A DNA stretch of 64,000 bases from Candidatus Eiseniibacteriota bacterium. Lineage in GTDB: Bacteria > Eisenbacteria > RBG-16-71-46 > JABDJR01. Shown here in pieces: positions 16,781 to 39,955 of this stretch; position 1 is the stretch's first letter, and each line of letters begins with the position of its first letter. Where the stretch lies: positions 608,001 through 672,000 of the forward strand of contig CAWANH010000029.1 of the NCBI GenBank assembly GCA_963783375.1, written 5' to 3'. A program made the translations under genes and the position numbers. The notes under the pieces are model-generated. The model saw only the letters and a program-made list of their open reading frames with translations, did no database searches and was not told the DNA's origin.

Positions 16781-16925
16781 GTGATCTGCCCTCTGGTCGG
16801 GGGGACTGCCGCCGGCGGGAGCGCCGCCACCCCCGGCCAGACCGTCGGAAAGGGCCGACGACGGCGTTGACTGTAGCAAATACGACGGGGGGCGTCTCCG
16901 TTTCAAACGGTTTCCCAGGGGCGGC

Positions 16926-16954
16926 TTGAGCCGGTTCATGTCTGGTGCTAGTGT
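16926..16954 (+). promoter_or_regulatory. Sigma70-like promoter TTGAGC-17-TAGTGT with extended TG, heading the plus-strand accessory operon
   Basis: Sequence match about 70 nt before ATG 17026. Confidence 0.45.
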
Positions 16955-17025: not shown

Positions 17026-18186
17026 ATGATCCGTTCGCTTCCACTCCGATCGTGCATCCCCTCTCCCGTAATCTCCTGGAGTCTTGCCGCGGTGACCGCC
17101 TGCCTCCTCGGCGCCGTTCCCGTCTCCTCCGCCCCGACCCAGAGCCCCGATCCCACCACCCTGGCCGCCTTCAAACAGGACCCGATGAGTTTCTTTTTCG
17201 ATCTGCGCCGGACCGATGCGGTGGCCTGCGGGCAGGTCGTGCTCGAGGACGCCGCCGTCCAGCCCGACGAGCGGCGGAAGGTCCTGACCGCCCTGGCCGC
17301 GGTGCACCTGGCCTCGGGACGGGAGCCCCAGGCCCGGGCCGCGGTCATGGCCATGCTGAGCGAGGACCCCCGCGCCGACCTGACCCGGCCGGAGATGCTC
17401 CCTCCCCCCCTGGTTTCGCTCTTCTACGGCCTCCGGGACAGCGTCCTTCTGGCCTCGGGGGACGCGGGCGACAGCACGGGCCCGGCGCCGGACATCCACA
17501 CCCTGGCGGTGGGTGACATCGAGAACAACTCCATCGTCGCCGGCAAGTACAACCTCGACGCCTTCGCCAAGGGACTCACCCAGATCATGATCACCGATCT
17601 CCAGGAAACCACCCCGCTGACCCTGGTGGACCGCCAGCGCCTGAGCGTGCTCCGGGAGGAGATCAAGATGAACCAGAACGCGCAGATCACCGATCCGCGC
17701 TACCGGGTCCCCCTGGGGCGGCTGACCGGGGCCCAGTCCTTCCTCTTCGGAAGCATCATGCAGGTGGACGAGAAGAAGGTGCGGCTGGACCTCCGGTGGG
17801 TGGACACCTCCACCGGGGAGATTCTCCTCGCCGACGGGGTGGAGGGAAAGCTGGGCTCCTCGGACGACCTGTTCAAGCTGGAGCGGACGGTGCTCCTGGA
17901 CCACCTGGTTCCCCGGCTTCAGAAGCTCCTGGGTGGCGAAGACCTCGAGCGAGCGGTGAAGCCGTACCTCGAGCAGAAGAAGAAGTCCCTCCCCAAGGGG
18001 ACGTCCTACGTGAACCTGTTGATCAAGACCGGCGACGCCATCCTGGCCGAGGATCGGGGGGATCTCGCCGCTGCCCAGACCGCCTGGAGCGAGGTGGCCC
18101 GCATGAACCCGGAGAACGCCGGGGCGGGCGGCCGGGCCCGGGCGCTCACCGCTTACCTGGCCATGAACGCGGAGGATGATCGATGA
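17026..18186 (+). CDS. Secreted TPR-like + CsgG/FlgO/TolB-N-like protein
   Basis: Signal-peptide-like N-terminus, TLAVGDIEN, LVDRQRLSVLREE, LGRLTGAQSFLFGS, RWVDTSTGEIL. Confidence 0.75.
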   Translation: MIRSLPLRSCIPSPVISWSLAAVTACLLGAVPVSSAPTQSPDPTTLAAFKQDPMSFFFDLRRTDAVACGQVVLEDAAVQPDERRKVLTALAAVHLASGREPQARAAVMAMLSEDPRADLTRPEMLPPPLVSLFYGLRDSVLLASGDAGDSTGPAPDIHTLAVGDIENNSIVAGKYNLDAFAKGLTQIMITDLQETTPLTLVDRQRLSVLREEIKMNQNAQITDPRYRVPLGRLTGAQSFLFGSIMQVDEKKVRLDLRWVDTSTGEILLADGVEGKLGSSDDLFKLERTVLLDHLVPRLQKLLGGEDLERAVKPYLEQKKKSLPKGTSYVNLLIKTGDAILAEDRGDLAAAQTAWSEVARMNPENAGAGGRARALTAYLAMNAEDDR

Positions 18187-19790
18187 ACCGAGTCCGGGGT
18201 TTCTTGTTCCTGGCGGCGGCGCTCACCGCCGCGGGGTGCGCGGTCGCCCCTCATGGCCCGGGGGACGACCTCCTTCGCCACGGGGACTTCGCGGCCGCGA
18301 TACCGGTGATTCAGCAGGCGCTGGTCGCCCAACCCGACAACCCGGTCCTGAACCGGAACCTGGGAATCGCGCTTCTCGAGACCGGAAAACCCGAGGCCGC
18401 GGCCACCGCCCTGGAGAGGGCGCGGTCCCTCGACCCGCGCGATCCGGTCGCCGCCTTCCAGTTGGGACGGGCGGCGGAAGCGGCGGGGAGTTGGGACGCC
18501 GCGGCCCGGGCCTACGGCGACTATCTCGCCCTGGGCGGAAAGCAGGAGTCGGCGGTTCGTGTTCGTCTCAACACCCTCAGCCACCGCCGGGCGGAGGCCG
18601 AGGTGAAGGCGGCCCTGGCCCGGGAGCGGAGCCTCTCCGCCGCCTCGGTCCCCGAAAACACCCTCGCCGTCCCCGACTTCGTGAACGTGGCGGCCAGCGA
18701 CACCCTGGCCCCGCTCTCCCGGGGCCTCTCCGCGGTCCTGGTCACCGATCTCTCCCAGGTGGGGGCGTTCCGGGTCCTGGAGCGCGATCGGCTCCAGGTG
18801 CTCCTGGACGAGCTGAACCTGAGCCATCCGAACCCGGAGGCGTCGACGCCCGCCGCCCCCCTCCACGACCCCTCCACCGCCCTGGGGCTCAAGGAGCGCC
18901 TCGCCGCGCTCCGCAGCGCATCGAGCGGGAAGCCGTATTACTCCGGCCCGGTGGACGATCAGCGGGATGCCGGTCTGGAGGCGGCGGTGCGGGAGTTTCA
19001 GGGGGATCATGGCCTGAAGGCCGACGGCGTTCCCGGACCCCGGACCCTGGCCGCCCTGGCCGGGGCGGTGGGCGATCGCCCCCCCGAGACCCCGGCCAAA
19101 CCCGCCGAGGTCGCGGAGGTGGCCCCCGACACCGCCCCCCGCCTCGGAAAGCTGATCGGAGCGCGGCGGTTCGTCCAGGGGGCCTTCGCTCCCCTCGGCG
19201 CGAGCGCGGTCCGCCTCGATGCGTCGGTGATCGCCACCCACGAAGGAACGCTGACCGCAGCGGGAGATCCGGTCAACGGCCCCCTCCCCCGGGTTCTTCA
19301 CCTGGAGAAGGACCTCCTGGCCGAGATCCTGGCCGCCCTGGGCATCACGCCTACCCCGGCGGAAGAGGATGCGCTGGCCCGGATCCCCACCGAGAACTTC
19401 GACGCCTTCATGGCCTGGTCCCGGGGCCTGGTCTTCCAGGACCAGGGACGCCGGGCCGAGGCGCTGGCCGCCTTCCGGGAGGCGGTCCGGCTCGACCCCG
19501 GCTTCAACGAGGCCCGCGCATCCGAGGAGCTGGCTGCGGTCACTCCCGACGATCAGGACGAGCTCGACCGGGCCGAGCTGGACCGGGCCTTCGCCTCGCC
19601 CCCGGCCGGCGCCACCGATCGCCTGCTCCGAAGCGGGGCCTGGACCGGCCTCGGGCCCGGACCCGACCTGGACCGCTGGGCGGACACCGACCCCACCGTG
19701 ACCGAAACCGAAAAGCTGGCCGAGGGAGGAGGGGACGCCACCGGCACCATCGAGGTCGGGGGCACCCTTCCCGGGAGGAACCGGCAATGA
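18183..19790 (+). CDS. TPR lipoprotein with a CsgG/FlgO-like domain and inserted peptidoglycan-binding domain
   Basis: AAGC lipobox, TPRs, TLAVPDF..VLERDRLQVLLDE..RLGKLIGA, AAVREFQ..HGLKADGVPGPRT. Confidence 0.78.
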   Translation: MNRVRGFLFLAAALTAAGCAVAPHGPGDDLLRHGDFAAAIPVIQQALVAQPDNPVLNRNLGIALLETGKPEAAATALERARSLDPRDPVAAFQLGRAAEAAGSWDAAARAYGDYLALGGKQESAVRVRLNTLSHRRAEAEVKAALARERSLSAASVPENTLAVPDFVNVAASDTLAPLSRGLSAVLVTDLSQVGAFRVLERDRLQVLLDELNLSHPNPEASTPAAPLHDPSTALGLKERLAALRSASSGKPYYSGPVDDQRDAGLEAAVREFQGDHGLKADGVPGPRTLAALAGAVGDRPPETPAKPAEVAEVAPDTAPRLGKLIGARRFVQGAFAPLGASAVRLDASVIATHEGTLTAAGDPVNGPLPRVLHLEKDLLAEILAALGITPTPAEEDALARIPTENFDAFMAWSRGLVFQDQGRRAEALAAFREAVRLDPGFNEARASEELAAVTPDDQDELDRAELDRAFASPPAGATDRLLRSGAWTGLGPGPDLDRWADTDPTVTETEKLAEGGGDATGTIEVGGTLPGRNRQ

Positions 19791-20929
19791 GCCGCCGTCA
19801 CGCGCGCCTCTTCCGATCGGCGTCCGTTCTGGCCCTCGCCCTCATCCCCGCCGCGGCGGCGGCCAGCTCGGGAACGGTGCGCGTCCCCGGGAGCTACCGC
19901 ACCTGGACGGTGAAACAGGACGGGACCGAGACCTCGATCAGCCAGTTCCACCTCCCCCTGGTTGTAACCGCCGGCCTCGGCCGTGGGACCGACCTCGTGG
20001 TCTCGGGTTCCGGGGCCTTCGCCTCGACGGATCCCTCCGGCGCCTCGTCGAATTCCCTGAACGGCTTGACCGACGTCACCGCGCAGCTCTTCATGCGCCT
20101 CGCCGGCGATCGATTCCTGATCCACGCCGGGGCCGGGCTTCCCACCGGGAAGACCGAACTCGACGACCGGGAGATCGTGGTGGCCCGCAACCTGGCCCTT
20201 CCCGTCCTGGGCTTCAGGGCCAAGGACTACGGAGAAGGCTTGAACCTGAGCGCGGGCGGAGCGGTGGCGTTTCCGCTCTCCGGGACCGCGCGGTTCGCGA
20301 TGGGGGCGGGGTTCGTCCATCGCGGGAGCTACACCCTTTTCGCCGGGGGCGGGGACTACCGCCCGGCCCCCGAGGTCTCGGCGACGGCGGGATTGGACCT
20401 CCAGGGCCGGGGAAAGGGGAGCACCGCTCCCCTCCTCCGCCTCGACGCGGTCTACCGTATCTACGGAAACGACGAGCTCGACGGAGAGACGGTCTTCGAG
20501 GAAGGAAACCAACTCGAGCTCCAGGCGGCGGGATCGAGCGGGGGAAGCGGGCTCCGGCTGACCGGCCTCGCCCGCACCGTGCTCAAGGCGGACAACACGG
20601 TGACCGGAGGTCAAGGTCAAACCGTGGAGGCGCTCAAGGCCAGCTCCGGGAACGCGGTGCTCGGCCGGCTCGAAGTCGACCTCCCGGTGGGCACCGCTCT
20701 CCGCGCGGGGATCACCTCGGAGTGGAACCACGTGAGCGGGAGCGACACCCCGGTCTGGAACGGCGATTCCTACGGACTCGGCCCCGTGCTCCGGGCGGCG
20801 CTCGGAGCGCACGCCCGGTTGGAGTTCAACGTCATGCGCCTCGGCGGCACCCTGGACGGCGGCGCGAACCCCGACCTCGACCTCTCCGGCACCTCCATAG
20901 GAGTCACCTTCTCCTGGCGGGCATCATGA
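19787..20929 (+). CDS. Putative outer-membrane beta-barrel protein
   Basis: Signal peptide, amphipathic strands, GLPTGK motif, C-terminal IGVTFSWRAS; ATGA coupling on both sides. Confidence 0.65.
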   Translation: MSRRHARLFRSASVLALALIPAAAAASSGTVRVPGSYRTWTVKQDGTETSISQFHLPLVVTAGLGRGTDLVVSGSGAFASTDPSGASSNSLNGLTDVTAQLFMRLAGDRFLIHAGAGLPTGKTELDDREIVVARNLALPVLGFRAKDYGEGLNLSAGGAVAFPLSGTARFAMGAGFVHRGSYTLFAGGGDYRPAPEVSATAGLDLQGRGKGSTAPLLRLDAVYRIYGNDELDGETVFEEGNQLELQAAGSSGGSGLRLTGLARTVLKADNTVTGGQGQTVEALKASSGNAVLGRLEVDLPVGTALRAGITSEWNHVSGSDTPVWNGDSYGLGPVLRAALGAHARLEFNVMRLGGTLDGGANPDLDLSGTSIGVTFSWRAS

Positions 20930-23900
20930 GGAACGTCATGCAATTCGGAAATCGAATGATTCCGCTTTCCCGGTTCATCGGGGTCCTTTTCGCCGCCGCT
21001 CTCGGCGCCGCGCTCTTTTCCCTGGGCTGCGGGGACCATGCCGCCACCGGGCCCCGCACCGCGGTGCCGCTGAGGGTGCGGGTGGAGTTCCCGGACGGCG
21101 CTTCGGCCAAGGGAGCGGGACTCACCCCGGCCGCGGTCATCGACCAGGTGCGGGCCTTCGCCTGGGAGGTGGTGGACGACACCACCCAGGTGCTGCGCGA
21201 TCAGGCCTCCCAGGACATCGCCCCCACCGACACCTCGTTCAGCCTGGTGCTGACCGTGCCTCCCGCCCCGCTCTACCGGGTGCGGGTGGAGGCCCGGAGC
21301 GGCAACGTGGTCCACTTCGAAGGCGAGGCCCTCGTGGAGGACGTGGGCTCGGGAGAGACCGCGACCATCAGCCTGGTCCTGGTGGATGCGCTCCCCCCCA
21401 CCGCCCCCACCGGCCTCACCGCGACTCTCTCCACCTTGACCAGCGTCGATCTGAGCTGGACGGACAACGCGGAGAACGAGACCCGCTATCGCGTGGAGCG
21501 CCGGATCGGCGCCGAAGGCTCCTTCGCCGAGATAGCGGTCCTGGAGGGCAGCTTCGCCGGAACCGTGACCTATGCCGACAAGAACCTCTCCGAGCGCACT
21601 TCCTACCAGTACCGCGTCCGGGCGCAGGGGGCGGCCGGCTTCTCCGGCTACTCGAACATCGCTTCGGCGCGGACCGGAATCGGCGCCCCCACCGGACTCG
21701 CCGTGGCCCCGCTCACCGATACCTCGCTCCGCATCACCTGGAGCTACTCCTCCGACCCCGGGGGCTTCCAGCTCCAACGCCGGACCGGATCCGGGGCCTG
21801 GGGAACGATGCTCTATCCGGGCGCCTCGGCCCGCGGCTACAACGACGGCGGCCTCCAGCCCAAGACTTCCTACGGCTACCGCCTCCGCGCCTTCGCCGGC
21901 CCCGACACCTCGGTCTGGACGCCGGAGGCGACCGGAAGCACCGAGGACCGCGCCCCGGTCTGCGCTCTCTCCGAGCCCAGCCATGATTTCGGCACTCTGA
22001 CGGTTGGGAACAGCTCCGTGTGGAGCTTCACCATCACCAACACCGGCGGCGGGACTCTGGCCGGAACCGTGGCCCTGGCGAGTTGCGGGAACGGCTTCAG
22101 CCTGACCGACGGCGAGGGACCGTTCAGCCTGACCGCGGGGCAGAGCCGGACGGTGCGCGTCCGGTTCGAACCGACCGTCCCCGGATCCCGCGCCTGCACG
22201 GTGGCCACCGGCCTCGCCTGCACGGTATCGCTCTCCGGGAACGCGGTCACCCTGGGCGCATGCTCGGTGGACCTTCCATCGATCGGGTTCGGAACCCTCG
22301 AGGTCGGTTCCACCGCGGACACGACCTTCGTGATCACCAACACCGGCGGATCGAGCCTCGACGTTCCCCTCGGGGCAAGCGGGGGGGGCTGCCCGGCCTT
22401 CACCCTGGATCCGCCGGCCGGGAACTACAGCCTCGACCCCGGGGCCAGCCTTCCGGTGAAGGTCCACTTCGCGCCCACCCAGGCCGTGACCTACACCTGC
22501 ACGGTCACCGCCGGGAGCGGGTGCTCGGTGGCCTTGAGCGGCGCCGGGCGATTGAGCCCCCTCTGCTCCGTCACCCCCACCACCCTCGACTTCGGCTCCC
22601 GCGAGGCGGGCACCGACAGCCTCCTCTCCTTCCAGATCACCAACGTCGGCGGCGGAACCCTGACCGGGTCGGTGGTCCTGTTCGAGTGCAGCGGCTTCAG
22701 CCTGGAGTCCGGCGGCGGGAACTTCGCCCTGGGGGCGGGGGCGTCGCGGGCGGTGACCGTCCGCTTCTCGCCGGGGCAATCGGGTAGCTACGCCTGCACC
22801 GTGGCCACCGGGACCGACTGCTCGGTGGCCCTCGTGGGCGAGGCGTTCGAGCTTCCGGTCTGCTCGGTGGTCCCGGCCAGCCTGGACTTCGGCACCGTGT
22901 TCACCGACGGGGACAGCGTGCGTAGCGTCACCGTCACCAATCGCGGCGACGGGGTGCTGAGCGGCGCGGCGACCCTGGGCGAGTGCAGTGGGTTCACCCT
23001 GAGCTCGGGGAGCGGCGCGTTCAGCCTGGGAGCGGGCGAGTCGCGGTCGATCGACATCGAGTTCGCCCCCCCCACCGCCGGTCCCTTCGCCTGCCAGCTC
23101 GACCTGGGAACGGACTGCGATCCGGTCGCCCTCACCGGGACCGGGGAACTCCCCCCCGCGTGCACGATCGAGCCCCAGGCCCTGGTGTTCGACACCCTCG
23201 ACGTCGAGACCTCCCAGGTCAAGAGCTTCACCATCACCAACACCGGGGGCGGAACCGTCGAGGGCACGGTGGCCCTGCCCGAGTGCACCGAGTTCACCCT
23301 CGACTCCGGAGCGGGCGGCTTCAGCCTGGGGGCGGGCGAGTCCCACACCGTGAGCGTCCGGTTCAGTCCGCTCATCCCCGGGGGCGTGGCCTGCGAGGTC
23401 ACCACCGGCACCCAGTGCTTCCAGGTCCCGGTCGCCGGCGCAGGACGGCTTCCCCCCTACTGCACCCTCGACACCTACTCCCTCGACTTCGGCGCCCCCC
23501 AGCCCGGGACGCCGGTCCAGCGGAGCTTCACCATCACCAACGACGGGGGCGGGTTCTTGACCGGCTCGGCAACCGAGAGCTGCCCCGACTTCTCGATCGT
23601 CTCCGGCGGGGGTCCGTTCAGCCTGGGGGCCCAGCAGAGCCGCCGGGTCACGGTGGAATACAACAGCACGTCCGCCGCCGGGGGGAGCTGCAGCGTGGAC
23701 CTGGGCACCGACTGCGGCTCGGTGTCGTGCACGGCGGCGGGGGTGCCGGAGTGCTCGGTGAGCCCCGCCACCCTGAACTTCGGCACCATACCCGCCGGGA
23801 CCGTCGCCGATCGTACCCTCACCGTCACCAACAGCGGGGGTGGCGTCCTGAGCGGCTCGGTGAGCGAGAACTGCGCCGAGTTCACGGTGTTCCAGGCGGG

Positions 23901-24413
23901 AGTGGGAGCGCCGTCGGCCCCCGCCTCCCCCGAGGCCAGCGTCCCCTATTCCCTGGCAGCCGGACAGAGCATCGACGTGACCGTCCGGTTCCAGCCCAAG
24001 ACCGGCGGGTCCTACAACTGCACCATCCTCGCCGGGGATCAGTGCATCGGGGTTCAGGCGGTGGGGAACGCCGCGGTGTGCTCGATCTCGCCGGGGACGA
24101 CATCGACATGGGGTACACGTACTACACGGGGGACTCGGCTACCAGCTGGTGACGATCACCAACACCGGGGCGGGCATCCTGGCCGGGGCTACCGACCGAG
24201 AGCTGCCCGAATTTCTCGCTCACCGACTACACCTACGAAAACCCGGTGAGTTCCTTCGCCCTCGGGCCGGGCCAGTCCTACAGCTTCGTGATCTGGTTCA
24301 CCGCCCCCGTCGACTTCGGGACCTATAACTGCACGGTCAGCCTCGGGCCGAACTGCCCGAGCATCGTGTGCACCGTGAACCACTCCTGCCTCGGAAAGCC
24401 GGGGAAGCGATGA
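20926..24413 (+). CDS. Large lipoprotein adhesin-like protein: 2 FN3 domains + 8 Cys-rich ASH (choice-of-anchor D) Ig-like repeats; 3 apparent frameshifts at 24090-24200
   Basis: SLGC lipobox, LSWTDN..YRVRA FN3 motifs, repeats C.V.P..LDFG..TITNTGGG.L.G; the last repeat continues across shifted frames to TGA 24413. Confidence 0.78.
21961..24400 (+). repeat. Eight ~300-bp intragenic tandem repeats encoding ASH/Ig-like domains
   Basis: Recurrent (t/g)atcaccaac..cggcgg and ttcagcctggg nucleotide motifs with a conserved Cys pattern. Confidence 0.8.
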
Positions 24414-26201
24414 GCGCGAACCGAATCCCGGGACCGGACACCCCGCTGGATCTGCTGATCCTGGCCGATCTCGTTCCGGAAGGCGCGGCCGATGCCCCCC
24501 TCCGCGCCCGCCCCCACCGGGTGGACGCGGCGGGCTTCGCCGAGCTGTTGCGGACGACCGCCCCCACCGTGTCCATCGTGACCGGGGACGGGGAGACGAT
24601 CGCGCTCCGGTTCGACGAGCTCCGCGCCTTCCGCCCCGAGGCCCTGGCCGCCGCCCTACCCGGGCTCCGGGGCCTGACCGCGGTCCACCGGATCCTCGAG
24701 GACCTCCACCGCGGGCGGATCGATCTCACCAAGGCCCTGGCCGAGCTGGACGCCCGCGCCGAAACCGTCCCCGGGGTGAAGGCGGTGCGGAAGGCGCTGG
24801 CCGGCGGCGCGTCCCCGGAGGGGAAGGCGTCGCCCGAGCCACCCCCACCCGCGACCCCGGCCCCTCCCCCGGCGGAGGGCGGGCTTTTCGACCTGGTGGA
24901 CGTGGACGCCTCCACCGCCCCCACCGAACCGGAAGCCCCGGCCAAGGCCCTCGACCGGCTGGTTCGCGAGATCGCCGGCGGCGGGGTGGCTCTGAACCGC
25001 GACCGCCTCGGCCGGCTCACCGCCCGCCTGGACGAGGCCTCGGCGCGACGGCCTCCGCGGCGTCCTTCACCACCCCGCGGTGCGAAACCTGGAAGCGGCG
25101 TGGCGCGGGCTCGATTTTCTCCTCCGGCGGATCGACCCGCGCTCCGGGGTTCGCGTTCACGTCCTGGCCGCGCCGGCCGGCGGACGCGTGGAGGCGTTCC
25201 GGGAACTCCTCCTTCCCCTGGCCGCGGAGATCCGCGAGGAGGCCCGAACCGCGGTGGCGCTGGTGGACGCCGAGTTCGGGGGCGGCCCCGACTCCCTGGC
25301 CGAGGCCCGCGAGCTCGCCGCCCTGGCCGAGGAGGCCCGGACCCCGCTCGTCGCCTCCGCCGATCCCCGGCTCCTGGGCCTCGATTCGTGGAAAGCGATC
25401 CAGTCCCTGGGTCCGGTGGACGAGATGCTCCACGACGCCCCGCCCGCCGGCTGGGCCGCCCTCCGGGGCGACCCCGCCGCCCGGTGGCTGACCCTGGCCG
25501 CCAACCCGTACCTTCTCCGCCTCTCCTACGGGGCGGATCTGGACCGGGTGAAGGGGTTCGCCTTCGAGGAAAACCCCGGCCCCGGCGATCCGACCTACCT
25601 CTGGGGACGGCCGGGCTGGATCGTGGTCGCCCTGATCGCCCTCGGCGCGATCCGGGACGGCTGGGGCGCGGCGATCACCGGCCCCGCCGCCGCCCTGGAG
25701 GTGACCGATCTCCCGGTCCGTCCGCTGGCCCTTCGCGGCGGAGACCCGGTCCAGATCCCCCTGGAGATGCTCCTCCCCGAGAACCGCGTGCTGGAGCTCT
25801 CCCGCGCCGGTCTGGCCGCGCTGGCCTGCGCGCGAAACCGCGACCATGCCTTCCTTCCGAGCGCGCCTTCCACCGCGGCGCCCGCACCTCCCACCGCGGC
25901 CTCGGACCGGCGAACCGAGGCGCTCCGGGTGTCGCTGGCCTACCAGATCTTCACCGCGCGGATCACCGCCCTCCTGGATCACCTGCTGCGTTGGATGGGA
26001 CCCACCCAGGGCCCGGAGGAAACCGCGGCCGGGCTCGCGACCGGGCTCCAGACCCTCACCGCAACCGCGGCCGGACCGGAAGTGGAGGTGGCCGGGGCGG
26101 TGGGCGACGGCGGGACGTCCATCGTGCTTCGCATCGTGCCGCGGGGCGAGCCGGTTCGGGGCCTGCCGGTTCTGGAGCTCCGCCTCCCGGTGGAGCGGTG
26201 A
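24410..26201 (+). CDS. TssB-TssC fusion sheath-like protein 1 (~596 aa; one frameshift near 25045)
   Basis: N-terminal LLILADL..LRFDELRAFRPEAL resembles this window's TssB; VLHHPAVRNLEAAWRGL..LLRLSYG..YLWG..DLPV resembles its TssC. Confidence 0.72.
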
Positions 26202-26204
26202 TCG

Positions 26205-26678
26205 GTGAGCCTGGACATCGCCCCCACCCAGATGAACTACTACGACGTCTCCGGGACCACCCTGGAGGAGGCGGCCGGCAATCTGGGCCTGCCCGGAGGC
26301 GAGGACGGGCTCACCGAGTTCGACCTCGGGTACGAGTACGACGGCGTGAGCCGGGGCCTTCCCCAGAACTTCATCCTGCACCTTTCGCTGGCCATCACCA
26401 TGCCCCGCTGGTTGGAACGGGACGCCGCCACCACGCCCGAGCAGGCCGAGTGGGACCGGTTCTACGCCGCGCTCCTGGCCCACGAACGGGAGCACGCCTC
26501 GCGGACCCGGGCGGAGGCGCGCCGGGTGCACGCCCGCCTGGCCCGCACCCGGGCCGCCGACCTCGAGGAGCGCTTCCAGGCCGGCAAGCGGGTGATCCAG
26601 CGGGAGAACGACGCGTTCGACGACGCCACCCATCACGGCCAGGTGCCGGCGCCCGGAACGATCATCACGATCCCCTGA
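26205..26678 (+). CDS. DUF922-like HExxH putative zinc protease without signal peptide
   Basis: YYDVSGTT, ITMPRW, WDRFYAALLAHEREH, FDDATHHG. Confidence 0.72.
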   Translation: MSLDIAPTQMNYYDVSGTTLEEAAGNLGLPGGEDGLTEFDLGYEYDGVSRGLPQNFILHLSLAITMPRWLERDAATTPEQAEWDRFYAALLAHEREHASRTRAEARRVHARLARTRAADLEERFQAGKRVIQRENDAFDDATHHGQVPAPGTIITIP

Positions 26679-26709
26679 ACGGGGCCGGCGACCGGCCGGA
26701 GGAACGATC

Positions 26710-28045
26710 ATGAAACCCTTGCCCTGGAAGATCACCGTGTTCTCCGACCTGGGGGGACGGTCCGACCCGCCGGTTCGCGTCCGCGCCGGGGACCTGGACG
26801 AACGCCTGCACGCGATGGGGGTCTCGGCGGCGATCCCGGTGCCCGGAAAAGGAACCGCGACCCTCTCCCCCGAATCCCTCGACGATCTCTCCCCCCGCGC
26901 GCTCCGGGACTTCCTCGGGGTTTCCGGAGAAGCCCTCGACGCCGTCCTCCACGCTCCCGCCTTTCAGGGGCTGGAAGCGGCCTGGCGTGGCCTGGCGCGC
27001 CTCACCGCCGAGGCGGGGGACGAGGTGTCGGTCGAGGTGGCGTCGGCGCCTCGGGGATCGCTGGCCGAGCGTCTGCGGGAGACCGTGCTCGGCCCGGGGC
27101 TCTCCACCGACGCCCCCCCCACCCTGCTGGTCCTGGACTACGACTTCACCCACAAGCCGGCCGACCTGGCTCTGCTCCGGGAGATCGCGGGAATGGCCAA
27201 GGTGCTCCAGGCCCCGGCGGTGGCCGCGGCGAGCGCCGGGCTTCTTCGATCTCCGCCACCTGGCCCACGTCCTCACCCTCCCCGACATGGTGGGGCGTTT
27301 GAACGACCCCGCCCACGCCGGCTGGACCGCGTTCCAGGCCACCGAGGAGGCGCGCTGGCTGGCCCTGACCCTGAACCGCTACCTGGAGCGCGCCCCCTAT
27401 CAGGGCGAGGACCACACCGAGGCCGCCACGGTGGCGAAACCGGAGACCTACCTCTGGGCGCGGGGCGGCTGGCTGGTGGCCACGGCCCTGGCCCGGAGCG
27501 CCCGGGCCCACGGCCACGCCCTGGACATGTCGGGGGGCCGGGGGGGCCGGTTCGACGGGCTTCCGGTCCGGGATTACCCGGTCTCGGCCAACGAAACCGC
27601 ATCCTTGGCCACCGAGGTTCCGATTCCCGACATGAAATCCCAGGAGCTTTCCCGCGCCGCCTTCACCCCGCTGGTGGGCCAGCTTCGCGGCGGGGCGGTG
27701 GTGGTCCCCATCGCGGTGTCGGTGTCGCGGCTCGGCCCGGGACGACTCACCGTGGAGGGGACCCTGGCCTACCAGATCACCGCCGGCCGGCTGGCGCGGT
27801 TCTGCGGCAATCTTCTCGACGCCGCCCCCGGCGGCTCGCCCGACGACGTTGCCGCTTTCTTCAGGGAATCCCTGAGCGCCTTCCTGGGCCCGGTGGGCGG
27901 CGAGGACGCGGTCACCGTGACCCCCACCACCGCCGAAGGCCCGGACGGCCCCCGCCCCATGGCGGAGATCCAGGTGCGCTCCGCGGTGCCCCTGGAGGGA
28001 AAGCCCATCTCGTTCACCTTCCTGCTCCCCCTGGCGCAGGACTGA
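26710..28045 (+). CDS. TssB-TssC fusion sheath-like protein 2 (~444 aa; one frameshift near 27240)
   Basis: LPWKITVFSDL..SLDDLSP (TssB-like) joined to VLHAPAFQGLEAAWRGL..DYDF..EEARW..YLW..ATEV (TssC-like). Confidence 0.72.
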
Positions 28046-28055
28046 CGGAGGAACC

Positions 28056-28592
28056 ATGAGCCTCGACCGCGCTTCCCAAGACGATGCTTCTTCCACCCAC
28101 GAGTTCCACGCGGTGGAGCGGGGCGACTCGGTGGAGATCGGGGCCGGGCTGGTGGTGGACGCGCCTCCCGCCGGGGTTCCCGACGCTCCCGCCCGCCTCC
28201 GCCTGGCCTCCGGGCGCCGGGCCGAGTTCGCCCGGGAGGGGGCGGACGACCTCCTCACCGTCTCCGCCGCCGACGGTCGGGTGGAGCTCCGGGTCCGCTT
28301 CACCGAGGCCGGTCCGGTCCTCTCCTTCGAGGCCGCGGGCCTGAAGCTGGCCAGCGTGGGGGAGGTGGCGGTGGAGTGCGACCGCTTCCGGGTGGAGGCG
28401 CGGGAGGCGGTGGAACTCCGTTCGGGGGGATCGATCGAATCCACGGCCGAGGGCGACGCGGTGACGCGCGCGGGAGGCACCGCCCGGGTCGAGGGACGCG
28501 CGGTGGAGGTGCGCTCCCGGCGGGGAGACGTGGACCTCAAGGCCAACGACGACGTCCGGCTCCGCGGGGAGCGGATCAAGCTCAACTGCTGA
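28056..28592 (+). CDS. Hypothetical beta-strand-rich protein resembling a VgrG/gp5 C-terminal spike segment
   Basis: GGAGG RBS; short alternating strands ending DVDLKANDDVRLRGERIKLNC, like the VgrG tail LTLSGTPVKAN. Confidence 0.55.
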   Translation: MSLDRASQDDASSTHEFHAVERGDSVEIGAGLVVDAPPAGVPDAPARLRLASGRRAEFAREGADDLLTVSAADGRVELRVRFTEAGPVLSFEAAGLKLASVGEVAVECDRFRVEAREAVELRSGGSIESTAEGDAVTRAGGTARVEGRAVEVRSRRGDVDLKANDDVRLRGERIKLNC

Positions 28593-28600
28593 GGCCGCGA

Positions 28601-29634
28601 ATGGACTTCGAGAACACCTCCGCCTTTCCCCGCCGAGCTGGTCCGGAGCGCCCTCTCCACCGACGACCGCGAGCCCATGCTGGCGGTGGTGGTGGTGAAG
28701 GTCACCTACATGGTGGACGCGGCGGGGACCGTCGAGCCGGCCCCGGAGCAGGATCCCATCCGGCTCGAGGCGGAGGAGACCGAGCTGGGGGTGCTCCCGC
28801 CCGACGCCGCGCCGGTCAAGCCCGGCTTCGACGTGCTGGTCCTGGGCCGGGCCCTCGCTCCGGAGGGAAAGCCGGTGCCGCAGATGACTGGTGCGGCTGG
28901 AGGTGGGTGAGGCGGCGCGCGAGCTGGCGGTGTTCGGCGAGCGGCGCTGGGTGAAACGTCCCCCGGAAGGAAAACCGAAGAAGCGGAAGAAGAACGAGCC
29001 GGAGCCGCCGCCGGTCTTCGCGGCCTCGCTCCCCGAGCCCTTCATCGCGCTTCCCCTGACCTACGCCAACGCCTACGGCGGGAAGGCCAAGGTCGGGGTC
29101 TACGAGGCTCCCTTCGCCTACAACCTGGAGGGAAAGGGATTCTGCATGGAGGCCGACGCCGCCGAGGGACTGCCCCTTCCCAACGTGGAGGATCCCCGCG
29201 CGCTGATCCGGAGCTGGGAGGACCAGCCCCGTCCGGCCGGGTTCGCTCCCCTCCCCCTCGGCACCCTCTTCACCGTGGAGCGCGGGGTCACCCACGACGC
29301 GGAGACGAACGAGCAGACCGTGCACCCGGAGGTGTTCCAGAACGCCCATCCCGACCTGGTCTTTCCGGAGGTTCCGCCGGGGACCCCGATCGTCCTCACC
29401 GGCATGACCCCGGAGGGACGCCTCGCCTTCGCCCTCCCCGACCTCCGGGCCTCGGTGACCGTGCGCCTGGGCGAGACGGAATATCATCCCGAGGGGAAGG
29501 TGGACACCCTGACCATCCACCCCGAGGAAGGGCGCATCGTGCTCACCCACCGCACCCCGTTCAAGTACCGGGTGGTGCCGGAGCAGATCCGGACCACCGT
29601 GCTCGCCGTGGAGAGCCCGGGGGGCGCATCATGA
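28601..29634 (+). CDS. DUF2169 T6SS accessory chaperone 1 (frameshifts near 28630 and 28890)
   Basis: VVVVKVTY, KPGFDVLVLG, VFGERRW, PL.YANAYGG, LPNVEDP, FQNAHPD. Confidence 0.75.
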
Positions 29635-30521
29635 GCATGCCCACCTTCGCCATCCACACCGTGAACGTCCGGTTGGCCTTTCTCTATGCCACCCACCTGG
29701 ATATCCCCCCGCCCTACACCGCGCCCCCCGCCCCCCTTCCCTTCGTAGAGGTGCCCCACACCTGCTTCTGGGGACCGGGGGCGGCCATGGCCGCGCCCAA
29801 CAAGGTGCTCACCGACAACTTCACCCCCGCTCAGATCGGTCACGACTGCGGGATCGGGGTGATCCACGTGGACATCCCGGTGGGGCCCCTGTGCCCGGTG
29901 GCCATCGCCACCTCCTCCTGCAAGGTGGTGTTCGCCGCCGGCACCGTGCTGTCGGACGGGAAGCCCACCGCCGGGCACTTCCCGCCCCTCATCAACCTGC
30001 TTCAGTGCTTCGTCCCGGTGCCGCTTCCCATCGGGGGCTTCCTCCTGGTGATGAACACGGTGTTCGTGGGGATGACCCTGCTGGACATCTTCATGGGGAT
30101 CGTCCGGATCGCCATCGCCATCGTCATCGCCCTCATCTTCAACAAGCTGGGGAGCTCGGCGGGCAAGATGGGGCAGGCCTGGCAGTGGGTGGGGAAACTG
30201 GGAGAACGGTTCGGGACCAGCTGGGCGGGGGCGATGGGGAACGCCCTCCTCGGCACCCTGGCCGAGGACATGGTGAAGGGCCTCGTCCTGGGTCCGATCA
30301 TGGAGGGCAAGATCGCCCTCCCCTACCAGATCGCCGAGCTGGATCTCACCAACGGCCAGGTCAAGGTGTTCTACTGGAACGTGGGCGGTCCGAACTGGAC
30401 GCCGGCCCAGAATCGATCCGTGGGCGGTCTCCTGGACAGCGCCCAGCAACCTACCGCGGTGCCGAGCGGATCGTCCCCCGCCCAGCAGGCCACCAGCGGC
30501 GTTCCCGTCCTGGGAGGATGA
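29631..30521 (+). CDS. Putative PAAR-like spike-tip protein with C-terminal transmembrane/Gly-rich region
   Basis: Pro-rich IPPPY..PLPF, GHDCG..H, SS.KVVF..TV..DGKP, C.VPVPLP..NTVFVG, then hydrophobic helices; lies between two DUF2169 genes. Confidence 0.55.
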   Translation: MSMPTFAIHTVNVRLAFLYATHLDIPPPYTAPPAPLPFVEVPHTCFWGPGAAMAAPNKVLTDNFTPAQIGHDCGIGVIHVDIPVGPLCPVAIATSSCKVVFAAGTVLSDGKPTAGHFPPLINLLQCFVPVPLPIGGFLLVMNTVFVGMTLLDIFMGIVRIAIAIVIALIFNKLGSSAGKMGQAWQWVGKLGERFGTSWAGAMGNALLGTLAEDMVKGLVLGPIMEGKIALPYQIAELDLTNGQVKVFYWNVGGPNWTPAQNRSVGGLLDSAQQPTAVPSGSSPAQQATSGVPVLGG

Positions 30522-30522
30522 C

Positions 30523-31758
30523 ATGGTGAGCGATCGCGCCATGAAGACGGCGCCCTACCTGGCCAAAGACCCCGAGGGACACCAGGCGGTGAACGTGCTG
30601 GTGAAGCTCGCCTACGTCCTCGAACCCGGGGGCGGGCTGGTCCCGGCCCCGGACCCGGTGGACTTCGCCGCCGAGGACGTCCTCGAGGCCAAGGGGGACG
30701 AGCCGGGGACGTTCCCCACCGAGGAGTGCGAGATCATTCCGTTCAAGCTCCGGACCGACGTGGTGGTGACGGGAACCATCCGCACCCCTGATGCCTACCC
30801 CCGGCGCGACATGCTGGCCGGGGTCCGGATCGGCCCCTACGGGAAGGCCATCCAGGTGTTCGGTGACCGCCGGATCGAGGCCGGGAAGGACGGCGCCCTC
30901 ATCTTCACCCCCCCCGAGCCCTTCACCGAGATGCCCCTCGCCTACACCCGGGCCTACGGCGGCGTGGATCCCTCGGTCCCCCGGGTCAACGACGACCCCC
31001 GCACCGCCGAGGAGTGGCTGGAGTACCTGACCCTGGAGCGCCATCCCGGGGTGTACCCGCGAAACCCGGTGGGCTCGGCCTACGTGGTGAACCCCCACCC
31101 GTGGCTCCTCTTCGGCCGCCCCCTCCCCAACTTCGAGGACCCCGACGACCTGCTCACCCCGGAGCGGATCGTGGTCACCGACCCCCGGCTCTGGTGGCGG
31201 CAGCCGATCCCCGCCGGGCTGGGATGGTTCGGGCGAAGCTGGTATCCCCGTTCGGTCCTGGGGGGGCTCGCGCCGCCGCTTCCCGCCGCGGAACCGGCGA
31301 AGCTCCGGGAGGTGGAGCTGGGCATCGTGCCCGCGGACCACGCCGACCGGATCGCCGACCCGGACCTCGACCGGCGGATGCGGCGGGAGTTCTTCAACGG
31401 GGCGTCGCCCGGCCTGGCCGTACCGCTCCTGCGCGGGGACGAGCCGGTGTCCCTGGTGGGACTCGACGTGGCCGGCGAACGGCGGTTCCGCCTCCCCGGA
31501 GAGGTTCCGAGGGTGAGCATGGCCTTCCGGGGCGAGGCCATGGAGGTGCGAGTCCACCTCCACACCGTCTGGATCCGGAAGGACGAGGATCTGGTGACCC
31601 TGGTCTGGAGCGCCCTCGCCCGCCCCCCCCGGATGCTACCGGTCACCCTCCCCACCCGGGAAGCCCCCGAGGTGGACGAGCTGGAGGGCATGGAGATCCG
31701 GGTGGAGGGACGCGAGGTTCCCCACGAGCCGGTGAACCTCGGCAAATCGCCGCTCTGA
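30523..31758 (+). CDS. DUF2169 T6SS accessory chaperone 2
   Basis: PFKLRTDVVVTG, VFGDR, MPLAYTRAYGG, NPVG, LPNFEDP, FFNGA. Confidence 0.82.
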   Translation: MVSDRAMKTAPYLAKDPEGHQAVNVLVKLAYVLEPGGGLVPAPDPVDFAAEDVLEAKGDEPGTFPTEECEIIPFKLRTDVVVTGTIRTPDAYPRRDMLAGVRIGPYGKAIQVFGDRRIEAGKDGALIFTPPEPFTEMPLAYTRAYGGVDPSVPRVNDDPRTAEEWLEYLTLERHPGVYPRNPVGSAYVVNPHPWLLFGRPLPNFEDPDDLLTPERIVVTDPRLWWRQPIPAGLGWFGRSWYPRSVLGGLAPPLPAAEPAKLREVELGIVPADHADRIADPDLDRRMRREFFNGASPGLAVPLLRGDEPVSLVGLDVAGERRFRLPGEVPRVSMAFRGEAMEVRVHLHTVWIRKDEDLVTLVWSALARPPRMLPVTLPTREAPEVDELEGMEIRVEGREVPHEPVNLGKSPL

Positions 31759-36614: not shown

Positions 36615-36679
36615 GGGAACTTCTCCTTCAGGAAGCCGCCCCGGGTCCGGCCGCGGCCGGACCGGGAGCGGAGACTGCG

Positions 36680-39467: not shown

Positions 39468-39469
39468 CC

Positions 39470-39886: not shown

Positions 39887-39922
39887 GGACCCTCCCGGCG
39901 AGGTTCAGGGGACGGCAAGGAC

Positions 39923-39955
39923 GGCCGGGAGGGCGCGATCCGCGTCCTCCCGGCC
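39923..39955 (-). terminator. GC-rich hairpin between hcp and tssE (stabiliser or partial terminator)
   Basis: ggccgggagggcgcg-atc-cgcgtcctcccggcc inverted repeat; no U tract. Confidence 0.45.

What the first reader, a model, noticed from the sequence alone, without database searches (positions are those of the whole stretch)
17026..31758. One operon couples an outer-membrane CsgG/TPR/beta-barrel/adhesin module to extra T6SS sheath and spike-loading genes
Seen: 11 plus-strand genes with ATGA overlaps (18183, 19787, 20926, 24410, 29631) or gaps of about 30 nt or less. They run from CsgG-TPR proteins, a beta-barrel and an FN3/ASH lipoprotein into two TssBC fusions, DUF922, a spike-like protein and DUF2169-PAAR-like-DUF2169, and converge on vgrG. 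Known: none of the first four genes is a canonical Tss/Tag component. Inference: a surface attachment or contact-sensing apparatus co-expressed with a modified injection machine, i.e. an undescribed T6SS variant possibly used for adhesion-guided firing or predation.
Basis: partly seen in the sequence, partly recalled or inferred. Interest (0 to 1): 0.9.

Follow-up and report, generated by a model that had tools for sequence, protein, structure and literature searches.

The report
T6SS accessory operon with fused sheaths
Beside an ordinary type VI secretion gene cluster of an uncultured Eisenbacteria-type bacterium lies a conserved operon for outer-membrane lipoproteins, a barrel, a long Ig-repeat lipoprotein, two one-chain copies of the contractile-sheath unit and spike-loading chaperones; these are likely lineage-specific helpers of that machine, not a new machine.

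Summary
The 11 tightly packed plus-strand genes are real and converge on vgrG of a complete canonical T6SS (31789-52576, minus strand). Four of them (Ig lipoprotein, both sheath fusions, first DUF2169) carry seven single-base frame breaks in this assembly. Relatives have them intact, and the genome shows patchy frame breaks elsewhere, so these are probably assembly errors.

The whole block is syntenic in three relatives whose records are titled Candidatus Eisenbacteria. Close orthologues of the first CsgG-like gene occur in 24 of 206 genomes of the phylum. Of these, 23 have a T6SS and 19 have the gene within 20 kb of T6SS genes. Only distant paralogue modules occur in T6SS-less genomes. A second envelope operon (52798-56330) sits divergent from the tssJKLM operon in 9 of 9 loci examined.

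Each fusion is a single-chain TssB-TssC protomer (VIA-align Z 33.5 to TssC1). Such fusions form a large, apparently unstudied family, not a rarity. Genes g8 to g11 look like a Tvp-type spike-loading set; "PAAR-like" is unproven.

Verdict: a lineage-specific accessory set of a known machine. The adhesion or contact-sensing role is plausible but untested. This scan has found the fused-sheath family before on other DNA.

The parts
15917..16939 (-). PP2C-type Ser/Thr phosphatase (PppA-like), divergent from g1
   Evidence: Pfam PP2C E 2e-17. Same position in G001. In G008 it heads the envelope operon.
17026..18186 (+). g1: CsgG/HfaB-like lipoprotein-type protein with C-terminal TPR
   Evidence: Pfam CsgG 52.8 bits against a cut-off of 20.8, covering the N-terminal half of the profile only; also LpoB. 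Atlas nearest clusters are 'CsgG/HfaB family' plus TPR. Signal peptide with a possible lipobox VTAC.
18183..19790 (+). g2: lipoprotein with TPR, PG_binding_1 and a CsgG-like domain
   Evidence: Pfam; lipobox AAGC.
19787..20929 (+). g3: outer-membrane beta-barrel
   Evidence: AF2 model with pLDDT 85.7, all-beta closed barrel. Foldseek finds only generic OM barrels (FadL, OccK, AlgE, BcsC, PgaA; TM 0.4-0.58). Sec signal peptide.
20926..24413 (+). g4: about 1160-aa lipoprotein with 2 fn3 and about 8 HYDIN/ASH-type Ig domains; three single-base frame breaks near 24097, 24134 and 24188
   Evidence: Pfam; lipobox SLGC; frames. Indels at exactly these sites in relatives' contigs. Intact in G002 and G001.
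24410..26201 (+). Fusion 1: single-chain TssB-linker-TssC sheath-like protomer; frame break near 25046
   Evidence: Pfam VipA. Intact 562-642-aa relatives carry PF05591 + PF05943. AF2 model of orthologue P0003 has pLDDT 82.7. VIA-align Z 33.5 to TssC1 5n8n_B, model 181-579 against chain 54-478.
26205..26678 (+). DUF922 protein with an HExxH motif and no signal peptide
   Evidence: Pfam DUF922 E 4e-24; sequence. Also lies between the fusions in L042 and G069.
26710..28045 (+). Fusion 2: shorter TssB(N)-TssC-like protomer; frame break near 27235
   Evidence: Pfam VipB; frames. A 1-base deletion at 27235 in the X2 contig. Single ORF in G001, G003 and G004.
28056..28592 (+). g8: small beta-prism-like protein, candidate TvpC-type VgrG mimic
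   Evidence: Weak DUF2345/DUF3540 hits; BLASTP E 4e-5 to the DUF6484 protein of G048.
28601..29634 (+). DUF2169 protein 1 (TvpA-type chaperone); frame breaks near 28624 and 28886
   Evidence: Pfam DUF2169 E 1e-42 for profile positions 81-294; the N-terminal part is in other frames. Single ORF in G001, G003 and G004.
29631..30521 (+). g10: unassigned 296-aa protein with a hydrophobic middle; candidate spike-tip or effector protein
   Evidence: No Pfam or NCBIfam hit. Atlas: unnamed Myxococcota clusters at 0.93, PAAR_motif clusters only at 0.84. 66-86% identical in G001, G003 and G004.
30523..31758 (+). DUF2169 protein 2
   Evidence: Pfam E 5e-52.
31789..33900 (-). VgrG, convergent on the block
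   Evidence: Pfam Phage_GPD, Gp5_trimer_C, Phage_base_V.
33903..52576 (-). Canonical T6SS-i core: ClpV, TssG, TssF, TssE, Hcp, TssC, TssB, TssA, TagF, TssM, TssL, TssK, TssJ, FHA-C protein
   Evidence: Pfam.
52798..56330 (+). Second envelope operon: unassigned protein (about 53125-53937), PEGA lipoprotein (54005-55174), CsgG+TPR paralogue (55152-56330), divergent from the FHA-tssJ operon
   Evidence: Pfam. Same arrangement in 9 of 9 loci examined. In G015 it is fused with g1-g4 into one operon.

Best explanation
The 14.7-kb plus-strand block is a conserved accessory operon of a complete, canonical type VI secretion system, and it likely contributes three add-ons rather than a separate machine.

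(1) Envelope set. g1 is a CsgG/HfaB-like protein, g2 a TPR and peptidoglycan-binding lipoprotein, g3 an outer-membrane barrel and g4 an Ig/FN3-repeat lipoprotein of about 1160 aa. Together with the x52798-PEGA-CsgG2 operon on the other flank, these are predicted to form an outer-membrane and cell-wall-anchored platform next to the TssJLM membrane complex. That platform would display the Ig-repeat lipoprotein and promote contact with target cells and/or anchoring of the machine (inferred).

(2) Sheath-like set. Two paralogous single-chain TssB-TssC protomers, plus a cytoplasmic DUF922 HExxH protein, are predicted to join or cap the ordinary TssBC sheath, for example as a specialised ring near the baseplate and spike (inferred, low certainty).

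(3) Spike-loading set. g8 to g11 are predicted to load a VgrG-tip or effector protein (g10) onto the adjacent VgrG in the manner of Tvp complexes: a small VgrG-like beta-prism protein, two DUF2169 chaperones and g10 (inferred from family knowledge).

Shown directly: gene content, order, overlaps, folds and conserved linkage. The seven frame breaks in this copy are most likely consensus errors of the assembly.
For: Complete T6SS-i core next door.

Synteny. The whole block, PP2C(-)|g1..g11-><-VgrG-ClpV..., is conserved in G001, G003 and G004 at 45-86% identity, and every broken gene is a single ORF there.

Linkage beyond the family, in shuffled arrangements:
- G028 and G034: g1, g2, g3, fusion -><- ClpV.
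- G043: g1, Ig, fusion, fusion -><- PAAR-like, DUF2169, VgrG.
- G065: g1, g2, g3, Ig, fusion 1, fusion 2.
- G069: g1 lies between ClpV and VgrG.
- G079: g1, fusion 1, VgrG on one strand.
- L042: g2-like, barrel, fusion 1, DUF922, fusion 2 -><- PAAR toxin, DUF2169, VgrG.
- G008: PP2C, PEGA, CsgG2, g1, g2, g3, Ig divergent from tssABC.
- G015: one 8-gene envelope operon divergent from FHA-tssJKLM-tagF.

Counts, cross-tabulated by me over 206 genomes:
- 24 genomes have a g1 hit at E<=1e-60.
- 23 of these have T6SS hits.
- 19 have both on one contig within 20 kb.
- The other 4 are assemblies of 130-1250 contigs.
- Fusion-1-type genes occur in 17 genomes, and all 17 also have a canonical TssC.

Fusion fold. 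AF2 pLDDT 82.7. Z 33.5, rmsd 4.0, 385 residues aligned to TssC1. Single-chain phage, AFP and pyocin sheaths align over model residues 1/9-580 at Z 18-21. The N-terminal part matches TssB 5urw_1A.

Literature precedents:
- Tvp scheme: DUF2169 TvpA, DUF3540/DUF6484 TvpC and a DUF4150 PAAR (PMC13373197; abstract, section 12 and passages).
- Outer-membrane contact factors TasL (FN3-like lipoprotein), TslA, TagM1 and TagQ, and peptidoglycan or outer-membrane anchors TagL and TagV (PMC13584744, passages).
- A second, non-redundant TssC homologue in Agrobacterium (PMC3702570, passages).

Frame breaks as artefact:
- Relatives' contigs differ by 1 base exactly at the break sites, beside G4-G5 runs.
- My GC3-HMM finds 155 strict candidate frame breaks genome-wide, in patches.
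- Other few-contig relatives have breaks in different genes: G004 in TssC and ClpV, G003 in g11, and P0010 at another site in fusion 1.
Against: - No experiment and no expression data exist, and the organism is known only as an assembly.
- Twelve genomes have g1-type hits (mostly 27-39% identity, one partial hit at 47%) but no T6SS hit. For four of them (completeness 94-99%) TssF and TssC family searches were also negative. The module type can therefore work without a T6SS.
- CsgG/HfaB+TPR lipoproteins are common in FCB-group phyla.
- Kin are not independent, so the linkage counts overstate the support.
- In G015, G041 and G048 the fusion pair stands apart from envelope genes, beside unrelated genes or a histidine kinase plus sigma-54 activator.
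- 25 of 37 long metagenome loci of the related ~500-aa fused family show no other T6SS gene within 8 kb with my queries.
- Fusion 1 scores below the NCBIfam TssC equivalog cut-off (158.5 against 271.5) and has no Pfam VipB_2 hit, so its ability to polymerise is unknown.
- g10 is not demonstrably PAAR-like.
- If the frame breaks are real, this copy is decaying.
Confidence: 0.6

Rival explanations
1. The envelope genes (g1-g4 and x52798-PEGA-CsgG2) are an autonomous cell-surface system, for example for display of a giant adhesin or for polymer export by a TPR-lipoprotein/barrel pair. It would merely be inherited next to the T6SS, without functional coupling.
For: - Paralogue modules (CsgG2-like, g1-like, g2-like, barrel, 1430-1479-aa protein) occur in G046, G052 and G055 and partly in G039. 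These genomes have no TssF or TssC hits.
- 12 of the 37 genomes with a g1 hit lack T6SS hits.
- The CsgG/HfaB+TPR family is widespread.
- The g3 barrel resembles AlgE, BcsC and PgaA only generically, and g2 has weak TPR hits to PgaA, BcsC and PrsT.
Against: - 23 of 24 genomes with close orthologues have a T6SS, and 19 have the gene within 20 kb of T6SS genes.
- Linkage survives several rearrangements, including g1 inside the ClpV-VgrG operon in G069 and g1 directly before fusion 1 in G079.
- 9 of 9 loci have x52798-PEGA divergent from tssJ.
- In genus g36, only the T6SS-bearing genome G079 has the close orthologue. Its T6SS-less congeners G046 and G078 have only the distant paralogue.
Confidence: 0.2
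2. The fused sheath proteins do not enter the sheath. They would be soluble mimics or regulators, for example decoys or adaptors for ClpV, TssA or the phosphorylation switch, or terminators of polymerisation.
For: - The large related ~500-aa family has PF05591 + PF05943 but no VipB_2 domain.
- That family often lies next to PP2C, just upstream of tssBC (8 of 37 loci).
- Fusion 1 and that family keep a motif that aligns with the N-terminal 'LLDEI' stretch of TssC. That this stretch is the ClpV-binding helix is recalled, not tested here.
- Fusion 2 lacks that stretch and most of TssB.
- Earlier scan notes reached this reading on other genomes.
- HsiC polymerises via its C terminus (abstract of PMC3597794, search listing only).
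Against: - The Eisenbacterial fusion 1 aligns structurally with TssC to about residue 478 and ends in further beta-strands.
- It superposes over its whole length on single-chain phage and eCIS sheath proteins.
- Two paralogues that always occur as a pair are more like stacked structural subunits (as recalled for Afp2-4 of eCIS) than like a regulator.
Confidence: 0.3
3. In this particular genome the block from 24.1 to 28.9 kb is a genuinely decaying pseudogene cluster. The accessory functions would have been lost while the core T6SS stays intact.
For: - Seven frame breaks fall in 4.8 kb. My GC3-HMM flags three of them and finds no other convincing break in the window's other 59 kb.
- A 93%-identical relative (P0010) has its own, different break in fusion 1.
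- One X1 contig (24135-24373) differs from the window by 9 bases and 1 gap.
Against: - All breaks are single-base changes beside short G or C runs.
- There are no in-frame stops or larger deletions, and GC3 remains at coding level (0.86-0.98) in the shifted frames.
- About 155 strict candidates occur genome-wide, in patches, including one patch of 16.
- Few-contig relatives show breaks even in core TssC and ClpV.
- The near-identical X1 contigs do not cover most break sites, so the point stays open.
Confidence: 0.25

Closest known systems
Canonical T6SS sheath TssB/TssC (VipA/VipB, HsiB1/HsiC1; PDB 5n8n, 3j9g, 5urw/5urx)
   Same: Fusion 1 has Pfam VipA + VipB domains. It is 27% identical to the window's own TssC over TssC residues 20-406. 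Fold Z is 26-33.5 to TssC chains, and its N-terminal part matches TssB.
   Different: - One polypeptide with a disordered linker of about 50 residues.
- Two paralogues, encoded apart from tssBC.
- Below the NCBIfam TssC cut-off.
- No Pfam VipB_2 hit.
- Fusion 2 lacks most of TssB and the N-terminal helix of TssC.
Second TssC homologue TssC40/ImpD of Agrobacterium tumefaciens
   Same: An extra sheath-type paralogue beside TssB and TssC41. It is non-redundant and needed for Hcp secretion (PMC3702570, passages).
   Different: I could not compare sequences because none was available in the tools. It is not reported as a TssB-TssC fusion or as a pair, and it is encoded inside the core operon.
Tvp accessory complexes (TvpA DUF2169, TvpC DUF3540/DUF6484, DUF4150 PAAR) of Serratia, Pseudomonas and Agrobacterium
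   Same: Two DUF2169 proteins, a small beta-prism-like protein and a conserved unassigned protein lie next to vgrG. The scheme is from PMC13373197.
   Different: No recognisable DUF4150 or PAAR domain in g10. g8 matches DUF3540 and DUF6484 only weakly. There are two separate DUF2169 genes and no pentapeptide-repeat TvpB.
Outer-membrane T6SS accessory factors TasL, TslA/TagM1, TagQ, TagV, TagL
   Same: Lipoproteins or peptidoglycan-binding proteins encoded with a T6SS that promote cell contact, mark contact sites or anchor the membrane complex. TasL has an FN3-like domain, like g4 (review PMC13584744, passages).
   Different: No homology was tested or shown. Here there is a multi-gene set with CsgG/HfaB-like lipoproteins, a dedicated barrel, a PEGA protein and a lipoprotein of about 10 Ig domains. 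A text search of that review found no mention of CsgG, TPR or DUF922.
CsgG (curli) / HfaB (holdfast anchor) outer-membrane lipoproteins
   Same: g1, g2 and the 55152-56330 protein match Pfam CsgG above the cut-off. Atlas neighbours are labelled CsgG/HfaB.
   Different: Only the N-terminal half of the CsgG profile is matched. The proteins are fused to TPR and PG_binding domains. No curli or holdfast partner genes lie nearby. Channel formation is untested.

Membership tests
T6SS subtype i (canonical) | All 13 core genes TssA-TssM (including Hcp, VgrG and ClpV) present | tested here: met
   Pfam hits for TssA, B, C, Hcp, E, F, G, ClpV, VgrG, J, K, L and M at 31789-51854, plus TagF and FHA-C.
TssB/TssC sheath | Sequence membership of the TssB (PF05591) and TssC (PF05943, TIGR03355) families | tested here: inconclusive
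   Window pieces: VipA E 4e-6 and VipB E 5e-14. Orthologues: both domains above the Pfam cut-off. NCBIfam TssC equivalog: 158.5 bits against a cut-off of 271.5, not reached.
TssB/TssC sheath | Sheath protomer fold | tested here: met
   AF2 pLDDT 82.7. Z 33.5, rmsd 4.0, 385 residues aligned to 5n8n_B. Z 18-21 to single-chain phage and eCIS sheaths over residues 1/9-580.
TssB/TssC sheath | Two separate subunits forming a heterodimer | tested here: not met
   Single open frame of 562-642 aa in intact relatives.
TssB/TssC sheath | C-terminal gp25-like domain (PF18945) and polymerisation into tubes | tested here: inconclusive
   No Pfam VipB_2 hit, but the structural alignment reaches TssC residue about 478. 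Polymerisation cannot be tested with these tools.
Tvp spike-loading system | DUF2169 (TvpA) protein next to vgrG | tested here: met
   Two DUF2169 genes (E 1e-42 and 5e-52), with vgrG 30 nt away.
Tvp spike-loading system | DUF4150/PAAR-type partner protein | tested here: inconclusive
   g10 has no Pfam or NCBIfam hit and no BLAST similarity to the L042 Tox-PAAR-like protein. Atlas PAAR clusters score only 0.84.
Tvp spike-loading system | TvpC (DUF3540 or DUF6484) VgrG mimic | tested here: inconclusive
   g8: DUF3540 E 0.003, below the cut-off; E 4e-5 to a DUF6484 protein of G048.
CsgG curli secretion channel | Full-length CsgG domain with curli partners CsgA/B/E/F | tested here: not met
   Only profile positions 11-104 of 210 are matched. 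No curli genes among the Pfam-scanned neighbours.
T6SS target-recognition accessory factors (TasL/TslA type) | Outer-membrane lipoprotein encoded with the T6SS; needed for contact-dependent activity | not testable with these tools
   Lipobox and fn3 domains in g4, and conserved T6SS linkage. Function and homology to TasL or TslA were not tested.

The most novel reading that the evidence does not exclude
Eisenbacteria run a distinct T6SS elaboration. In it, a CsgG-like/PEGA/TPR lipoprotein-barrel platform docks on TssJLM and holds out a ten-domain Ig lipoprotein that senses or grips prey. A pair of single-chain sheath protomers forms a dedicated sheath ring, or an alternative sheath, that couples firing to a Tvp-loaded VgrG spike. 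That would be a contact-gated injection apparatus with parts not described for any T6SS.
Probability: 0.15. Interest if true: 0.85.

Novelty: new variant of a known kind. Interest (0 to 1): 0.55.

Why it matters
T6SS accessory genes decide where, when and at whom the machine fires, and they are known almost only from Proteobacteria and Bacteroidota. This locus gives a coherent candidate accessory set from an uncultured phylum. It contains an envelope and adhesin module with fixed linkage to the membrane-complex operon. It also contains paired single-chain sheath protomers.

These protomers belong to a large family: at least about 150 clusters at 50% identity score E<=1e-97. My full-text searches found no functional study of it. 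If the fusions enter or cap the sheath, they would be the first specialised sheath subunits of a T6SS, comparable to the several sheath paralogues of extracellular contractile injection systems (recalled, not from a call).

The practical lesson is that few-contig assemblies like this one carry patchy frame errors that can masquerade as fusions or pseudogenes.

Tried and rejected
- **Complex prediction** (g1 against TssJ plus the TssM C-terminal domain, alignments A3-A5): the queue was full or the call was not sent on at every attempt.
- **Promoter and terminator scan of 15800-32200**: 0 promoter-like sites and 7 terminator-like sites, against 5.7 expected. This is uninformative for this phylum.
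- **The search for homologous proteins** gave only 15 relatives of fusion 1, and I first read that as rarity. The exhaustive profile search showed this was a limit of the word index, so I dropped the rarity claim.
- **TssL compensation idea.** I considered that g2 compensates for a TssL without a peptidoglycan-binding domain. The TssL open-frame lengths are not reliable gene lengths at 70% GC, so I did not pursue it.
- **Read laying**: the contigs of X1 that match without any difference do not cover the break sites. The only X1 contig that spans some of them (24135-24373) differs from the window by 9 bases and 1 gap. No statement on this strain's true sequence is possible. Four indel rows were not shown, including any at about 25046 and 28886.
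- **Ser/Thr kinase search in the own genome**: 25 hits, none inside the window, so no PpkA partner of the PP2C was found nearby.
- **g10:** Pfam, NCBIfam, BLAST and the Atlas gave no assignment.
- **g8 against PDB sequences:** one weak hit only.
- **The listing of cluster members** gave only automatic names.
- **Literature:** searches on Eisenbacteria T6SS, on CsgG/PEGA with T6SS, and on DUF922 found nothing bearing on function.
- **A stand-alone contractile machine** built from the fusions plus g8 was rejected. There is no tube, baseplate or ATPase paralogue in the block, and every genome with the fusions has a canonical T6SS.

Full report
**Observation**

The window has 70% G+C, so I called genes by third-position GC and a small frame HMM as well as by ORFs. 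Eleven plus-strand genes run from 17026 to 31758. They have ATGA overlaps at 18183, 19787, 20926, 24410 and 29631, and gaps of 1-31 nt elsewhere. They end 30 nt from the stop of a minus-strand vgrG.

- g1: CsgG-like.
- g2: TPR + PG_binding_1 + CsgG-like lipoprotein.
- g3: a barrel. The Pfam hit is sub-threshold, but the AF2 model is a closed beta-barrel with pLDDT 85.7. It resembles only generic outer-membrane barrels.
- g4: an fn3 plus ASH/HYDIN-Ig lipoprotein.
- Two VipA/VipB-type genes, DUF922 and two DUF2169 genes.
- g10 has no assignable family.
- g8 is only weakly like the VgrG-type beta-prism families.

**Frame breaks**

Three-frame translation shows that four genes change frame without a stop:
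- g4 near 24097, 24134 and 24188.
- Fusion 1 near 25046.
- Fusion 2 near 27235.
- The first DUF2169 near 28624 and 28886.

Even so, the fusions are real. Relatives of 562-642 aa carry both PF05591 and PF05943, and in G001, G003 and G004 each of the four genes is a single open frame. G002 shows the intact 3' end of g4 overlapping the start of fusion 1 by ATGA.

Contigs of public runs from relatives about 92-93% identical differ from the window by one base at 24097, 24134, 24188, 27235 and 28623. These sites lie beside G4-G5 or C runs.

My HMM finds 336 loose and 155 strict candidate frame breaks in the 4.73-Mb, 29-contig genome. They cluster in patches, one with 16. Other few-contig relatives carry breaks in other genes, even in core TssC and ClpV. 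I therefore read the breaks as probable consensus errors (about 75%). Real decay remains possible, because no contig that matches the window exactly covers the break sites.

**Surroundings**

The minus strand from 31789 to 52576 encodes a complete canonical T6SS: VgrG, ClpV, TssG, F, E, Hcp, TssC, B, A, TagF, TssM, L, K, J and an FHA-C protein. A PP2C phosphatase lies divergent from g1. Beyond the T6SS lies a second plus-strand envelope operon with an unassigned protein, a PEGA lipoprotein and a CsgG+TPR paralogue. No Ser/Thr kinase lies in the window.

**Relatives**

Record titles name the nearest genomes 'Candidatus Eisenbacteria bacterium' MAGs. The whole block and the adjoining T6SS are syntenic in G001, G003 and G004. 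Further out the parts stay linked but are shuffled:
- G028 and G034: g1-g2-g3-fusion convergent on ClpV.
- G043: g1-Ig-fusion-(AbiE pair)-fusion convergent on PAAR-like, DUF2169 and VgrG.
- G065: g1-g2-g3-Ig-fusion 1-fusion 2.
- G069: g2-g3...fusion 1-DUF922-fusion 2, convergent on DUF2169-VgrG-g1-ClpV.
- G079: g1-fusion 1-VgrG.
- L042: TPR/PG lipoprotein-barrel-methyltransferase-fusion 1-DUF922-fusion 2-HEAT, convergent on a PAAR-GHH2 toxin, DUF2169 and VgrG.
- G008: PP2C-PEGA-CsgG2-g1-g2-g3-Ig divergent from tssABC.
- G015: one operon (x52798-like, Ig, PEGA, CsgG2, g1, g2, g3, g4) divergent from FHA-tssJKLM-tagF.

In 9 of 9 loci examined, the x52798-PEGA operon is divergent from the tssJ operon. 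These are the window, G001, G003, G006, G015, G043, G065, G069 and G079.

Of 14 fusion-bearing loci examined:
- 11 have g1-, g2- or g3-type genes within about 10 kb upstream.
- 9 have VgrG and/or DUF2169 within 10 kb.
- G015, G041 and G048 have the bare fusion pair. In G041 and G048 it lies beside a histidine kinase and a sigma-54 activator.

**Counts**

I cross-tabulated these from three searches over 206 genomes of the phylum:
- 52 genomes have TssC-type hits, 53 have TssL hits and 37 have g1 hits at E<=1e-20.
- 25 have both g1 and T6SS hits.
- 12 have g1 hits but no T6SS hit.

Restricting to close orthologues (E<=1e-60) leaves 24 genomes, 23 of them with a T6SS. The exception is a partial hit at a contig end. 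In 19 of the 23, the gene lies within 20 kb of a T6SS gene on the same contig. The other 4 are fragmented assemblies.

The T6SS-less genomes mostly carry a distant paralogue module (27-39% identity). For G039, G046, G052 and G055, searches with the TssF and TssC families were also negative at 94-99% completeness.

Fusion-1-type genes occur in 17 genomes of six families, always together with a canonical TssC. Related genomes are not independent samples, so these are descriptive counts and not tests.

**The fusions**

The AF2 model of orthologue P0003 (pLDDT 82.7, pTM 0.82) has a TssB-like N-terminal part, a disordered linker (residues 135-189) and a TssC-like body.
- Foldseek's best matches are T6SS TssC chains, and the N-terminal part matches TssB.
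- VIA-align gives Z 33.5 to P. aeruginosa TssC1, model 181-579 against chain 54-478.
- It gives Z 18-21 to single-chain phage, pyocin, AFP and PVC sheaths over nearly the whole model.
- Identity to the window's own TssC is 27%.

Each fusion is thus a complete sheath-type protomer in one chain. Fusion 2 is a shortened version.

An exhaustive profile search corrected my first impression of rarity. The best 150 of 1.84 billion representatives all score E<=1e-97, and most cover the TssB-like N-terminal part. Two further forms appear:
- About 500 aa, with VipA + VipB but no VipB_2 domain.
- 825-1440 aa, automatically named 'contractile sheath domain-containing protein', for example in Pseudorhodobacter.

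Of 37 long metagenome loci of the ~500-aa form, 12 lie in T6SS clusters. The typical order is PP2C(-)|fusion-tssB-tssC-tssA-tssE-tssF. The other 25 show no other T6SS gene within 8 kb with my queries.

Full-text searches for fusion or paralogue terms found no study. The nearest precedent is the second, non-redundant TssC homologue of Agrobacterium (passages). Earlier notes of this scan describe the same family on other genomes, one of them also with CsgG-like, TPR and barrel neighbours.

**Mechanism**

The following is inferred.

The envelope set has the sequence features of an outer-membrane assembly: lipoboxes, a barrel and a peptidoglycan-binding domain. Its fixed position beside the membrane-complex operon suggests that it works at the TssJLM site. 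It may be a contact or adhesion factor in the manner of TasL, TslA or TagQ. It may also act as an anchor in the manner of TagL or TagV (review PMC13584744, passages).

g8 to g11 fit the Tvp logic of DUF2169 chaperones preparing a spike-tip protein for VgrG (PMC13373197). The tip protein is not recognisably PAAR-like.

For the fusions I favour incorporation into, or capping of, the ordinary sheath. A regulatory mimic is nearly as likely. None of this was tested, and the one complex prediction I prepared could not be run.

**Verdict**

I class it as a new variant of a known kind: lineage-specific accessory modules of a canonical T6SS. It is of moderate interest, mainly for the unstudied single-chain sheath family and for the envelope module fixed beside tssJKLM.

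Noticed in passing
whole genome G000 (e.g. C29 around 1681062; C28 around 202725): My GC3 frame HMM flags 155 strict candidate frame breaks genome-wide. They cluster in patches, one with 16. The assembly probably has local indel errors, so any 'fusion' or 'pseudogene' in it needs checking.
   Followed up: partly
window 52798-56330: A second envelope operon (unassigned protein, PEGA lipoprotein, CsgG+TPR paralogue) lies divergent from the FHA-tssJKLM operon. The same arrangement holds in 9 of 9 Eisenbacterial T6SS loci examined. In G015 it continues directly into g1-g4 as one operon.
   Followed up: yes
L129-L208 (metagenome loci); P0033, P0035, P0039, P0046: There is a large family of natural single-chain VipA+VipB proteins. 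It has forms of about 500 aa without VipB_2 and forms of 825-1440 aa with long N-terminal extensions (one cluster from Pseudorhodobacter). 12 of 37 long loci lie inside T6SS clusters just upstream of tssBC, often next to a PP2C gene.
   Followed up: partly
L042:7879-9552, L129:6360-7943, L194:11348-12895, L203:9346-10674; HEAT proteins at L042:13689-14876, L194:4992-7665, L029:18149-19390: MTS-type methyltransferases (with DUF7059/DUF7782) and HEAT-repeat proteins recur next to fused sheath genes in unrelated loci. These are possible further partners and remain unexplained.
   Followed up: no
L029:9232-11024 (G043): A DUF6088 + AbiEii toxin-antitoxin-like pair is inserted between the two sheath-fusion genes.
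   Followed up: no
L024:8312-11163 (G041); L025:12899-15651 (G048); L028:8980-11249 (G034): Two-component regulators sit directly beside the fusion genes in several genomes: a histidine kinase with a sigma-54 NtrC-type activator, or with an OmpR-type regulator. This hints at dedicated transcriptional control.
   Followed up: no
L020/L021 (G004) and L018/L019 (G003): Relatives assembled into few contigs have their own frame breaks: G004 in core TssC and ClpV, G003 in the second DUF2169 gene.
   Followed up: partly
window 26205-26678: The DUF922 protein carries an HExxH motif (AHEREHA) and no signal peptide. It sits between the two fusions here and in G001, G003, G004, G069 and L042, but it is absent between them in G015, G041, G048 and G065. 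It might process the fusion-1 linker; this is speculation.
   Followed up: partly
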